64,000 bases of DNA, from the NCBI GenBank assembly GCA_951406725.2, contig OX597832.1, positions 16,492,001 to 16,556,000 of the forward strand, in the 5' to 3' direction. The first letter of the stretch is position 1. The number at the start of each line of letters is the position of its first letter. The notes beneath the pieces are model-generated. The model was not told where the DNA came from. It ran no database searches and saw nothing but the letters and a program-made list of their open reading frames with translations. Below are positions 11,503 to 56,665 of the stretch, piece after piece. The position numbers were made by a program, and so were the translations under genes. The DNA is from Octopus vulgaris. Lineage: Eukaryota.

Positions 11503-11868
11503 AAAACACACACAGGCGCGGGCGTGATTCGTGTATGTGCCTGTGTGTTTTACTCGTTATCATGCACGATCGATGCATATGCTTGTTTATATAGAATTCA
11601 TTCGCTTTTAGAAGTTCAATCTTTCATCTGAAATGCATCACTGAAACTGTCAGATCGAAGTTTGAAATATGCTGTTTAGAGATCTACAAGAGAAACAGAA
11701 CGATTCAGCATTCGTTCGCATATTGAGTATTACAATTTAAAAAACGAAGTTACTTAACATTGATGCAAATTTGAACAGCGTATCGCATAAGTGAAGTAAG
11801 TCACCCTTTGCAACGCAGAGAATACCTATGCAAATTGTACATTTGCGGTGTAGTACACTTGAAATACC

Positions 11869-12100
11869 TATTTCTTTATTACCCACAAGGGGCTAAACAC
11901 AGAGGGGACAAACAAGGACAGACATAGGTGTTAAGTCGGTTACATCGACCCCAGTGCGTAACTGGTACTTAATTTATCGACCCCGAAAGGATGAAAGGCA
12001 AAGTCGACCTCGGCGGAATTTGAACTCACAACGTAACGGCAGACGAAATACCGCTAAGCATTTCGCCCGGCGTGCTAACGTTTCTGCCAGCTCGCCGCTT
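11869..12100 (-). mobile_element. SINE family B, full length (tandem copy 1)
   Basis: tRNA-like head (GGCAGAAACGTTAGCACGCC...GAGTTCAAATTCC). Flanked by a 15-bp TSD TA(C/T)ACTTGAAATACC. Confidence 0.92.
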
Positions 12101-12115
12101 TATACTTGAAATACC

Positions 12116-12346
12116 TATTTCTTTATTACCCACAAGGGGCTAAACACAGAGGGGACAAACAAGGACAGACATAGGTATTAAGTCAATTACATCGACCCCA
12201 GTGCGTAACTGGTACTTAATTTATCGACCCCGAAAGGATGAAAGGCGAAGTCGACCTCGGCGGAATTTGAACTCACAACGTAACGCAGACGAAATACCGC
12301 TAAGCATTTCGCCCGGCGTGCTAACGTTTCTGCCAGCTCGCCGCTT
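12116..12346 (-). mobile_element. SINE family B, full length (tandem copy 2)
   Basis: About 5 differences from copy 1. A third TSD copy lies at 12347-12361. Confidence 0.92.
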
Positions 12347-12851
12347 TATACTTGAAATACCATAGAAAGAAAAGTATGAATCGAAACAATATACTCTCTC
12401 GCTCTCTAAAACTCTTTCTACATATGTTAATACAGATACATTTCAACGTGTGTTGGTGCGTGTGTGTGTGCGTGTGTTTGTATCTCTGTGTATTTACATA
12501 CTCATATGTTTTTCTACTATAGGCACATGGCACGATATTTTTGGTAAGGGGACCAGTCGATTAGATCGACCCCGCTACAAAACTTAATTTATCGACCCCC
12601 AAAAGGATGATAGACAAAGTCGACCTTATATATACATATTTATGACATATATGCACGCATATATATATACATACATACATACATACATATATATATATAT
12701 ACCAATTAAGGACTGAACGGGAAAAAGTGGACAGTCAGCATGCTAGATATAGACGTCAAATCGCCATTCTCCACAAAATTATGTTCTCTGATCAAACTCA
12801 ACACCAACCCAAGCAATAAACAAGTGAAAATATACGAAAAATAATACTCAT

Positions 12852-12916
12852 CCATGTACTGAATCAGTTTTGACTATTATTAACCGTAAGGATACCCGTA
12901 GTCTTCGTCAGCATGG
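12852..12916 (-). ncRNA. Hammerhead ribozyme, inverted copy, probably inactive (G12 to A)
   Basis: Minus strand reads CCATG-CTGACGA-A-GACTA...TAGTC-AAAAC-TGATTCA-GTA-CATGG, so GAAAC has become AAAAC. Confidence 0.75.
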
Positions 12917-13299
12917 CCGATATGAATGAAATCTGCTAAACTAGATGCAAAAAAACGATACCGGAGTATCATCATGTGCGTAGAGTTCAACCGATTTTCG
13001 TGTTCAGTCCTTAATTGGTATATATAAAAATATTTAATCTTCAGATTTTTTTAATATGTTATTGATAAATATTGATATCTACCCTTAAGTAATTTTATAA
13101 AAAAATAAATATGTTTCTCTAACCGATAAATTGACTGCTGCTAATTATTAGCTGCAGGCTATTTTCTTCGGGTCTCAACGCGCCAAAGTGAAAGGCATTT
13201 GAAATTTACATTCAGATGTAATCGGTTGAACTCTACGCACATGATGATACTCCGGTATCGTTTTTTTGCATCTAGTTCAGCAGATTTCATTCATATCGG

Positions 13300-13364
13300 C
13301 CATGCTGACGAAGACTACGGGTATCCTTAGGGATAATAATAGTCGAAACTGATTCAGTACATGG
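13300..13364 (+). ncRNA. Type I hammerhead ribozyme with intact core
   Basis: Stem I CCATG/CATGG; core CTGACGA plus an extra A; stem II GACTA/TAGTC enclosing a TATCC-TTAG-GGATA hairpin; GAA; stem III ACTG-ATT-CAGT; GTA cleavage triplet at 13357-13359. Confidence 0.85.
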
Positions 13365-13713
13365 ATGAGTATTATTTTTCGTATATTTTCACTTGTTTAT
13401 TGCTTGGGTTGGTGTTGAGTTTGATCAGAGAACATAATCTTTTGTGGAGAATGGCGATTTGACGTCTATATCTAGCATGTTGACTGTCCACTTTTTCGTG
13501 TTCAGTCCTTAATTGTTATATATAAAAATATTTAATCTTCGGATTTTTTTAATATGTTAAACCACTGGTTTTAATTGATAAATATTGATTTCTAACCTTA
13601 ATTAATTATATATATATATATATAGCTGAAGCAAATGAACACAAAATATAGAGTGCCTGTGTTTTTAATGGCTAAACTGGCAACATGACCATCCCCAAAT
13701 ACAACAATATATA

Positions 13714-13823
<110 letters not shown>

Positions 13824-14138
13824 TATATGTGTGTGTATGTATGTATGTATATGTATGCATACACATATAGGAATACGTATTACTGCATTGTTTTATTTAT
13901 TTATGCATATATTTGAAAGCAGATACACTCGAGCACATTACTGGCCGTCTTGCCGGAATGAATTGAACCTAGTATGTATATAAATATTATATTTATATCC
14001 TGTAAGCTATATTAAGGTCACATACCCCGATGAAAAACTAAGGTTTTCAATAAAATTTACGTAACAAATTCAACTTGTTATAAAATGATTTCAATGTGTT
14101 GTTTAAATGTTGCATCCCTTATCTTTGATGTTTGTATG

Positions 14139-17204: not shown

Positions 17205-18500
17205 ATATCGGAGTTGCTGATTGACTTTTCTGTATTAAATTTTGATGCTGATTACGAATCTGACGTCCGATTTCCTCTATCAGGTCACATATTCATGTTA
17301 ATGATACCTGCTGTTTTAACTTATAGGATACGTAAAGCATGTCTATATAAAGTATATTGAATACAAGATACGATAATTTCATGGACTTTTTATTGTACAT
17401 AATTAAAGTTATTGTGTACAAATAAGTTAGAATACACTTGAATGCGTAACAACTGAAAATCTTTGGGATTTAGACATTCTATGGTGTTTTGTTTCTGGTT
17501 CATCCCTGTATAACATCCAACAGTAGTCAGCTAACATTCCTGTATTCCAACATCCTTGATATCGTTGTTCATCGATGCAATATCTTGATAGAAGCGTTTC
17601 CCTTTCTCATCAGACACTGCTCCAAGGTTCTTCTGCAAAAGAGTTCAGATGTGAATCAAGGAAATGGACTTTTAGTGACATCCAACAACCCATTGCAGCT
17701 AGAAGACATTTTACTCTGTTTCTAAACTCTAGAGATCTCTTGTTGCCTAGGAAATTTTCACAGAGCCATTTGAAGGATTCCAAGGTTTTAAGCTCAATCT
17801 CATCCAGTGTTGTAAGGAAGTGGGCCTAGGAATACGCCTTCCTTCAATTTTGCCTCGGTGATTTTTGGAAATTTGGCCTTCACATATTCAAAACTTTTTG
17901 ATCTTTTCCTGGCAAGTGTCTTCACGATTTGTTTCATGAGGCCAAGTTTTATGTGAAGAGGGGAAAGAAGACCATTTTCTCGGTTTAAAACTGGCTTACT
18001 CTGGACGTTAGAAACTCCTGGCTCATGATTTTCGCAAAGGCCACTCTAATTGCACATAGTGATTGTTAGTTGCACGACTGTCCCATAGGCATAAAAAGCA
18101 ACAATATTTGGTGAACCCAGATTGCATTCCCATCATCATTTCAATCACCTTCAAGTCTCCGCATATTTTCCAGCTGTAGTTTGTATGCTTTATGGCATTG
18201 AGGAGTACTTGAATGTGTTCATAACACTCCTTCATGTGCACTGTATGTCCTATGGGACTGGCTGGTTTCTTATTGCCGTTGTGTAGTAGTACTGCCTTCA
18301 GGCTTCTCTTAGAGGAATCAATGAATAAGCGCCATTTAACTGGAACATGCTCTTGGAACAAACAGCGAAATAACTCATCAGTCTTATTACTGAAACACAA
18401 TGGTCCATCAACAGAAAAGCATGAAGTCAGACCCCTATTTCTCTTCTTGAAATGAGTAATACAAACATCTTTCTTAAGCAGACACTTTTCTTGTAGGCGA
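17205..18500 (-). mobile_element. Decayed CMC/Chapaev3-like DDE transposase (C-terminal part plus subterminal region)
   Basis: WRLFIDSSKRSLKAVLLHNGN...ICGDLKV...GFTKYCCFLCLWDSR, then PLHIKLGLMKQ, KLKEGVF, NFLGN, MSLKVHFLDSHL, NLGAVSDE, RYQG, MLADYCW. Frameshifted. Confidence 0.8.
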
Positions 18501-18699
18501 GATCAGTTTCTAAAGCACAAAGATTCATAGGATGATGTCTTGGGACGGAACGATCATTCAAATTGGAATTACCCGCATATTACATCACCATTCGATTCCT
18601 AATATTAATTGGCTGTGTTTTGTCTCTCCTGCGCATCTATGCTTGTCTCTTTCTAATTCATATAAGTATATAGACTGTGAGGGAGAGAGATAAAACAAT

Positions 18700-55000: not shown

Positions 55001-56665
55001 TAAATCCTTAAATCATTAAAAATGTTTTAGCCCGAAGGCCGCGCCCATGCTGGGGCACCACCCTGAATGAGCTACATTAATTTGTGAATCCACCTCTGAG
55101 ACGTGGCACTTGATCAACAAGGGAGTTCGATGCTGCTGCCCGCATCCGCGTCTCCTGTCGTGAGGTGGGTTCATTCGGGACTCCTGACAAGAAGAGATCC
55201 TGTTTAGTTTTAAAGAAACATACATCCACACCATGTAAGTCTCTCAGGCATTTAGGGAGGATGTTAAAGAGCTGTGGTCCTCTGAAACCCAAGCTGTTGC
55301 AGTATCTAGACATGTATTTTGACGGTGATGCTGGAGCCCTTGGCACCATGCATTGGCGCCCCGTTCTGCGGTTGGGGTAACTTTGAATGCCAAAGTTTGG
55401 GACAAAACCATCCAGGATTTTCCAGATGTATATCACCGCACATCTCTCCCGCCTCCGCTCTAGGGAGAAGAGATTTAATACCTTCAGTCTTTCCCAGTAG
55501 CTGATATTTTGCATTGAGACGATTTTCTTTGTGTAGCTTCTCTGAATTACTTCGAGTTCTGCTGTTAGTTTTATATTGTGTGGTGACCACAGTTGGGAGC
55601 TGTAGTCCAAGCGGCTGAGGACGAATGTTTTCCATAGGACCATCAGTGTCTCCTTCCATCTTGTTCTGAAAGTTCGGAGAATCCATCCAGCTATCCGTCT
55701 GCATTTTATCACCAGATTAGCAATATGCACTTGGAAAGATGCATCATTGCTCATGTCAATGCCCAGGTCAGGCACTGATTTTGACTCAGGGATTGCAATT
55801 CTTCCTGGGCCAGTGTATCCATTCTACCAAGTCGTTTTCCTTTGTGTGCCAGTAGCGTAGGGCCAGGAACTTACCTGCATTAAACTGCATGTTGTTGTCC
55901 TCAGCCCACCTGTATATTGTGTCCAACTCCTGTTGCAGATGCGCAATATTTTCAGGGTTTTGTATTGCGTGGGATACATTTGTGTCATCTGCATAGCTAG
56001 CAAGGGTGGTCATCGTAGCAACTGAAGGCATGTCTTAAAGGGCCACTGATGTTCATAGTGGCCCCAAGACAGTGCACTGTGGGACACCGCTTGCTATTTG
56101 TGTTTCCTTGGAGGTGGCTCCATTGCTCACAACTGCCTGTTTTCTGTCTTTTAGGAAGTTGTACAGCCACTCTCCAAGTTTTCCGCCTATGCCGAGACCA
56201 CGCAGTTTGTGACAGATCATACCATGGTCGACCTTATCAAAGGCTTTTGCCAAGTCGAGATATATTACATCCACATTTGAGCCATTTAGTAGCTGTTTCA
56301 ACACCCAGTCATAGTGTTGCAGGAGGTGTGTTAGGCAGCTTCTACCTGGTCGAAATCCATGCTGGGTGTCAGACAGCAAGTCATATTCTTCAAGGAACAT
56401 GATGAGCTTCTTACGGACTATTCGTACATGATTTTGCTGATGTGTGAGGTCAGAGAGATAGGCCTATAATTTTTAGCATCTGCTCTGCTACCTCCCTTAT
56501 GGATAGGGCATATTACCCCCACTTTCAATTTGACTGGGAGCTTACCACTTGCAAGAAAGCTCTGAAAAAGAAGCTGTAGCGGTTTTGCAAGGTCTCGTTT
56601 GTACGATTGGAGAAGGATCGCTGGGAATCCATCAGGTCCAGCAGCTGAGTTTGTGTCAATCAACT
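55001..56665 (-). mobile_element. 5'-truncated CR1-clade LINE: frameshifted ORF2 RT plus 3' UTR
   Basis: GPDG, NYRPISLTS, QHGFR, DLAKAFDKV, SGVPQCTVLGPL, YADD, DLG, LWSP and WERLKVLNLFSLERRRER. The stop is at 55077, followed by a stem-loop and 8-bp tail repeats (TTTAATGA/TTTAAGGA). Confidence 0.92.

What the first reader, a model, noticed from the sequence alone, without database searches (positions are those of the whole stretch)
12701..13610. Intact hammerhead paired with an inverted, core-mutated antisense twin
Seen: 13300-13364 has all core nucleotides and three stems. Stem I extends (TCAT/ATGA) past an ATCGG bulge and stem II carries an extra hairpin. The inverted copy (12852-12916) has G12 to A. 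The layout is inverted 296 bp, duplicated 3' end, unique 125 bp, then the pLTR, with no ORF. Established: G12 is the general base, and partial tandem plus inversion is typical of Penelope. Inference: a read-through transcript could either self-cleave after 13359 or fold into about 300 bp of dsRNA that hides the ribozyme and would be an ADAR or Dicer substrate.
Basis: partly seen in the sequence, partly recalled or inferred. Interest (0 to 1): 0.72.

Follow-up and report, generated by a model that had tools for sequence, protein, structure and literature searches.

The report
Two-armed retrozyme insertion, one arm decayed
This is one copy of a common 510-base jumping repeat that carries a hammerhead self-cutting RNA motif and lands in TA microsatellites as two back-to-back arms; the mutated twin is likely chance decay rather than a switch, but the two arms almost always stop at two different fixed points, which likely records how a Penelope-type enzyme copies the RNA from both cut DNA strands.

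Summary
In detail: intact type I hammerhead core at 13300-13364, inverted copy at 12852-12916 with G12>A, no ORF. The reading as a ribozyme paired with a purpose-built dead antisense twin does not. The locus is one insertion of a 505-513-bp non-coding repeat family. The genome has 540 exact intact-core matches against 3 with G12>A, and tandem arrays of up to 7 units. Head-to-head arms are usual (61 of 92 sampled places), and 20 of 23 places with a hammerhead on both arms keep both cores intact. G12>A is a CpG transition among about seven private changes in this arm. Of 61 head-to-head pairs, 49 are A+B by rule (51 on reading) and none A+A or B+B. An autonomous Neptune family in the genome shows the same in 4 of 4 pairs. 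A one-sided tail is already described for Penelope elements, and this scan noted the same two-end rule earlier in other families. Verdict: new member of the non-LTR retrozymes. Cleavage, transcription and the mobilising enzyme are untested.

The parts
12684..12701 (.). left (TA)n target microsatellite
   Evidence: sequence; arm-end contexts
12702..12996 (-). inverted arm, 5'-truncated at unit position 13220, ending at fixed site A (no tail)
12852..12916 (-). hammerhead copy with G12>A (position 12871, CpG) and an A>T change weakening the inner stem II hairpin
12995..12996 (.). head-to-head junction, 2-nt overlap (TT) shared by both arms
12995..13093 (+). 3' end of the preceding tandem unit (site A region and tail, with a 15-nt deletion)
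   Evidence: alignment to 13493-13624
13300..13364 (+). type I hammerhead, intact core, extra A at 13312, inner hairpin in loop II, palindromic stem III; predicted cut after 13359
13500..13524 (+). fixed end site A (element ends at 13516, then TATATATA shared with the target)
13517..13606 (+). 90-nt tail between sites A and B, present on one arm only; predicted short hairpins, one with a UUCG loop
13594..13610 (+). fixed end site B
13607..13624 (.). right (TA)n target microsatellite
   Evidence: sequence

Best explanation
This is one insertion of an abundant non-coding hammerhead repeat (a non-LTR retrozyme) in a TA microsatellite, likely pasted by a borrowed Penelope-type enzyme that primed copying from both cut strands, and the G12>A change in the inverted arm is likely later chance decay. 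Shown: family, unit length, tandem arrays, two fixed ends, A+B pairing, private status of G12>A. Inferred steps: (1) a GIY-YIG endonuclease nicks both strands of (TA)n; (2) each nick primes reverse transcription inside the same RNA, one at site A and one at site B, helped by the TATATA at each site; (3) both cDNAs run 5'-ward for a variable length, often past one unit and across the hammerhead site, so the template is a circle or an uncut multimer; (4) the two cDNA ends join by microhomology (TT at 12995-96), giving head-to-head arms; (5) the copy then decays. The hammerhead likely serves the family's RNA cycle (cutting multimers to monomers as a dimer), not this locus.
For: Family: 1931 first-look candidates, 40 scored; 540 intact cores, control 0; arrays with a 505-507 period, up to 7 units. 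Selection on the fold: 90.8% of cells paired, 64 two-sided changes against 20.4 shuffled, slid controls 30-45% (48 distinct core-intact variants, related, so not independent events). Pairing rule: set 1, found by similarity, 26 of 32 pairs A+B, 6 with one other end; set 2, found by core pattern on three contigs, 23 of 29 by rule, 25 on reading the contexts; no A+A or B+B; p 4e-15 for 49 of 49 at 0.5; unpaired arms in set 1 use A 11 times and B 7 times. Autonomous Neptune family (781-aa frame with RT and GIY-YIG) also ends in (TA)n and shows tail plus no-tail in 4 of 4 complete pairs among 29 places. One source for both arms: on average only 10% of other copies are as close as the partner arm over 36 pairs; the window's arms share a letter found in 0 of 137 other segments; L127 arms share 18 rare variants. 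61 of 158 arms exceed one unit plus 45 nt, and 5' ends are not enriched at the cut site (6 seen, 5.3 expected). Decay: G12>A 3 copies, G8>A 2 copies; CpG transitions 12/484 against 16/1789 elsewhere, p 0.009; the inverted arm differs from the local majority at 8 sites, the forward arm at 3. In vitro, an anole Penelope protein cuts and extends both strands, starts at two internal sites that bound the tail, and does not need hammerhead cleavage (PMC11167929, parts 1-2 of 4).
Against: No autonomous partner found: no homology beyond about 40 AT-rich bases to 30 GIY-YIG loci; the three Penelope protein hits near copies were separate from the arms. The tail is 90 nt, not the 30-40 nt of the literature or the roughly 36 nt of the Neptune family here. 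PMC11167929 saw no difference in start site between strands, which does not by itself predict strict A+B. The partner arm is closest or tied for both arms in only 12 of 36 pairs, and some pairs differ by 9-11 sites; conversion between arms could also explain their likeness. 10-12 of 61 pairs have one end at neither site. The inverted arm here carries more private changes than the forward arm (about 7 against 1), not significant but unexplained.
Confidence: 0.78

Rival explanations
1. Same family and same decay, but the two ends are made by endonuclease cuts that resolve a DNA intermediate (for instance a self-primed hairpin cDNA) at staggered sites A and B, not by two priming events on the RNA.
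For: Both sites are CCTTAATT followed by a TA run and resemble the AT-rich target. PMC8557442 (passages) ascribes the tail to EN-mediated resolution; PMC3846280 (passages) proposes self-priming on an antisense template for head-to-head junctions. Several pairs have both arms starting at the same unit position (L110, L133, L136, L145, L158), as a fold-back would give.
Against: Most pairs start at unrelated positions with 0-17 nt overlaps or short gaps. PMC11167929 maps the tail ends onto RT start sites in vitro.
Confidence: 0.15
2. One reading: the locus is used by the host, a read-through RNA either self-cleaving or folding into 300 bp of dsRNA that hides the ribozyme and feeds ADAR or Dicer, with the dead twin preventing cleavage of the opposite strand.
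For: A read-through RNA is predicted to form 290 inter-arm pairs and lose all hammerhead stems. Penelope copies in a rotifer give small RNAs (PMC3846280, passages).
Against: The dsRNA would form at any of the 61 head-to-head places sampled, so it is a family by-product. The dead core is not kept across copies (3 against 540; 20 of 23 pairs intact on both arms). G12>A sits among scattered changes outside the ribozyme.
Confidence: 0.05
3. The repeat is the solo terminal repeat (pLTR) of an autonomous Penelope element, and these are just short 5'-truncated stubs of it.
For: All Penelope footprints are present; retrozymes are reported to be related to pLTRs (bioRxiv 10.64898/2026.07.22.740005, parts 1-3 of 5).
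Against: Arms longer than one unit wrap into another unit instead of an ORF (61 of 158 arms; arrays 99.5-99.7% identical within L067); no ORF is attached in 92 places.
Confidence: 0.05

Closest known systems
Metazoan non-LTR retrozymes (PMC7229834, passages; bioRxiv 10.64898/2026.07.22.740005, parts 1-3 of 5)
   Same: Non-coding, low-GC tandem units with one type I hammerhead each; monomers to multimers; hundreds of copies; co-occurs with Penelope elements.
   Different: Unit 505-513 bp, longer than the 170-400 nt of the first paper but inside the 51-972 bp of the second. Neither text that I saw describes head-to-head arms with two fixed ends ('inverted' occurs 0 times in PMC7229834). Circular RNA is not shown here.
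Insertion units of endonuclease-bearing Penelope-like elements (PMC8557442, PMC3846280, PMC8969392; passages)
   Same: 5' truncation, partial tandem, inverted 5' arm, tail on one end only, (TA)n target, microhomology junction.
   Different: No RT or GIY-YIG ORF; tail of 90 nt instead of 30-40; both arms can be multimers of a whole unit.
Penelope-associated hammerheads (PMC4209133, passages)
   Same: [quoted passage not shown]
   Different: Loop II carries a covarying inner hairpin; helix III is 4 bp plus 2-3 nt rather than absent.
Anole Poseidon element PAc in vitro (PMC11167929, parts 1-2 of 4)
   Same: Two internal start sites bounding a tail, both strands used, AT-rich target, template uncut by the hammerhead.
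   Different: There the start site has no homology to the target and shows no strand bias; here each site carries a TATATA match to the target and the two sites exclude each other within an insertion.

Membership tests
type I hammerhead ribozyme | core CUGANGA, GAAA, UH | tested here: met
   149 of 159 full-length copies unbroken in core and stem III (91 of them from places picked by an intact core; 62 of 68 in the similarity set)
type I hammerhead ribozyme | three helices around the core, helix I open | tested here: met
   helices I, II, inner hairpin and III at 99.6, 83.5, 97.1 and 100% paired, with two-sided changes; helix II is understated by a one-column misalignment of one subfamily; helix I extension only 78%
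type I hammerhead ribozyme | self-cleavage after H17 | not testable with these tools
   needs an in vitro assay; monomer fold predicted unstable, stem III self-duplex -11.3 kcal/mol against hairpin -0.5
non-LTR retrozyme | tandem units each with a type I hammerhead | tested here: met
   family arrays of 2-7 units; this locus itself holds 1.2 units forward and one hammerhead per strand
non-LTR retrozyme | no protein coding, low GC | tested here: met
   no ORF of 100 aa; GC 0.34 over 12001-14000
non-LTR retrozyme | expressed as linear and circular monomer RNA | not testable with these tools
   only assembled contigs of related organisms were on offer
non-LTR retrozyme | kinship with the pLTR of an autonomous Penelope element | tested here: inconclusive
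   no match in 30 of 150 scored GIY-YIG places (6136 candidates); sample small and dominated by one family
autonomous Penelope-like element | RT plus GIY-YIG ORF | tested here: not met
Penelope insertion footprint | partial tandem, inverted 5' arm, one-sided tail, microsatellite target | tested here: met
Penelope insertion footprint | tail of 30-40 bp | tested here: not met
   90 nt, 13517-13606

The most novel reading that the evidence does not exclude
Each two-armed insertion is the fossil of one circular retrozyme RNA held by a Penelope RT dimer whose two subunits start at two different fixed sites from opposite strands of a TA target and roll round the circle. That would be direct genomic evidence for circular-RNA-templated, two-strand priming, with a 90-nt structured tail that defines the minimal hijack signal.
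Probability: 0.3. Interest if true: 0.62.

Novelty: new member of a known kind. Interest (0 to 1): 0.33.

Why it matters
The locus itself is an ordinary, slightly decayed copy. The family is useful because it is young, short, numerous and non-coding, so it gives counts for two open points: how Penelope enzymes make their inverted, one-tailed insertions, and whether animal retrozymes are copied by those enzymes from circles. The strict A+B rule in both the retrozyme and an autonomous Neptune family turns the textbook remark that the tail is often on one end into a testable prediction for the existing in vitro system. The family also supplies many perfect inverted repeats that would be dsRNA if transcribed.

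Tried and rejected
Rfam: no hammerhead or other real hit (the weak microRNA hits lie on TA repeats). Expression: no RNA holder listed. Contigs of four runs guessed to be RNA, none sharing half of the words, cover the family unit mostly at 85-95% identity, with no cover of this locus's own flanks; they cannot show strand, start or editing. Three contigs end and one begins at 13360, the predicted cut, but a common variant lies 30 bases earlier (13330), which would break an assembly graph at that point (my inference), so I give it no weight. A>G differences cannot be told from copy differences. Whether the locus lies inside a transcribed gene was not determined. Partner search: PF01541 scan found Neptune-type families with their own ends, no homology to the unit; one Pfam accession that I recalled is not in the library. 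5' ends do not cluster at the cut site, so cleaved linear monomers as sole templates are rejected. Rows left out of the pair counts: loci that repeat the same place (19 in set 1, 22 among L102-L131), L013 (arms 280 nt apart), L029 and L144 (tail-to-tail; L144 is A/A across a TA run), L173 (same place as L172). The first core census (142 of 159) counted stem changes as broken and was replaced (149 of 159). A sequence look-up in earlier findings gave nothing.

Full report
Observation. The forward hammerhead is as described: stem I 13300-04 with 13360-64, CUGACGA at 13305-11, stem II with an inner hairpin, GAAA at 13345-48, a 4-bp stem III and GUA ending at 13359. The inverted arm 12702-12996 matches 13220-13516 with eight substitutions and a 2-nt gap; one turns G12 into A (12871). 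That G12 is the general base is recalled knowledge, not a call result. Both ends run into (TA)n. Rfam does not detect the motif.

Family. The element has 1931 first-look candidates, 40 scored. An exact core pattern matches 540 times, the reversed control 0. The unit is 505-513 bp and forms tandem arrays of up to seven, nearly identical within an array. The 'unique 125 bp' is unit sequence and the 'duplicated 3' end' is the previous unit, so the forward arm is a 1.2-mer. No Penelope ORF is attached in 92 distinct places; three protein hits lie apart from the arms. Across 48 distinct core-intact variants the core is invariant except N7, and stems II, III and the inner hairpin show two-sided changes (64 cells against 20.4 in shuffles). 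These rows are related and were chosen for an intact core, so this shows a kept fold, not a p-value.

The dead twin is not special. Genome-wide the same pattern with G12>A matches 3 times and with G8>A twice; the three G12>A copies belong to three sequence variants. Of 159 full-length copies 10 are broken in core or stem III (6 of 68 in the similarity set). Of 23 head-to-head places with a full hammerhead on both arms, 20 keep an intact core on each; in the similarity set alone 7 of 8. Here G12 is in a CpG, and CpG transitions run at 12/484 against 16/1789 for other C and G sites (p 0.009). The inverted arm has about seven private changes scattered over 295 nt. Both arms share a letter near 13427 seen in none of 137 other segments, so they share a source and G12>A arose in one arm during or after insertion.

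A read-through RNA is predicted to pair 290 bases between the arms and to lose every hammerhead stem. That is true of any such insertion, and 61 of 92 sampled places are head-to-head. Without the arm, stems I and III still have under 2% predicted probability. Stem III in all six variants tested is self-complementary and more stable as an intermolecular duplex, matching the dimer model in PMC4209133 and PMC7229834 (passages). An antisense copy cannot be the dimer partner. Transcription of this locus is untested.

Arms end at two fixed sites, A (13516) and B (13606), each CCTTAATT followed by a TA run that merges with the target. In set 1 (52 places found by similarity) 32 pairs were 26 A+B and 6 with one other end. 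In set 2 (40 further places found by the core pattern on three contigs) 29 pairs were 23 A+B by rule, 25 on reading two contexts where the alignment ran into the TA tract, the rest with one other end. There was no A+A or B+B, although unpaired arms in set 1 use both ends (11 A, 7 B). An autonomous Neptune-type family in the same genome (781-aa frame with RT and GIY-YIG; clade name from the recalled zinc-finger motif, described in PMC8557442) also ends in (TA)n, has a tail of about 36 nt, and shows tail plus no tail in 4 of 4 complete pairs among 29 places. Partner arms are closer than chance (10% of other copies as close on average, 36 pairs), but strictly closest or tied for both arms in only 12. 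61 of 158 arms exceed one unit plus 45 nt, both arms can be multimers (L127, L132), and 5' ends ignore the cut site.

Mechanism. Most likely a borrowed Penelope RT-endonuclease nicks both strands of (TA)n, primes once at A and once at B on one circular or uncut multimeric RNA, and the two cDNAs join by microhomology. This rests on the counts above and on PMC11167929 (parts 1-2 of 4): both strands cut and extended, two start sites bounding the tail, a predicted dimer, hammerhead cleavage not needed. That paper saw no strand bias in start site, so the exclusion rule is not explained by it. The main rival is endonuclease resolution of a DNA intermediate (PMC8557442, PMC3846280, passages). The mobilising family was not found.

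Known or new. Non-LTR retrozymes and their link to Penelope elements are in print (PMC7229834; bioRxiv 10.64898/2026.07.22.740005, parts 1-3 of 5). The inverted arm and a tail often on one end only are in print (PMC8557442, PMC3846280). I found no paper counting the exclusion or describing a cephalopod retrozyme in searches (listings only, open library only). Earlier notes of this scan report the same two-end rule for other families, one in this genome; I reached it before reading them and they are not independent support. Verdict: real, a new member of a known kind; the headline pairing is decay; interest 0.33.

Noticed in passing
window 11854-12361 and 12555-12626: Two tandem copies (period 247) and a fragment of another very abundant repeat, likely a SINE; contig depth in the thousands.
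   Followed up: no
L080:90-574: A second, unrelated hammerhead family as a 485-bp head-to-head palindrome beside a Neptune 3' end; stem III is a perfect palindrome and stem II is very long.
   Followed up: no
L164:1245-4667; L167:2-3471: Young Neptune-type family with many 781-aa open frames, an upstream open frame of about 400 codons in L167, tandem repeats in the 3' UTR and a 36-nt one-sided tail.
   Followed up: partly
L013, L017, L066 (unit positions 13131-13136): Three arms stop within 6 nt of each other about 40 nt past site B and not in a TA run: a possible minor third end.
   Followed up: no
L136, L158, L110, L133, L145: Pairs whose two arms start at the same unit position; two use an internal inverted repeat upstream of the hammerhead, as a fold-back would.
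   Followed up: no
window 55077-56463, minus strand: Fragments of a LINE-type reverse transcriptase ORF.
   Followed up: no
window 18023-18502, minus strand: 159-aa open frame that reads like a DNA-transposon-derived protein fragment (impression only).
   Followed up: no
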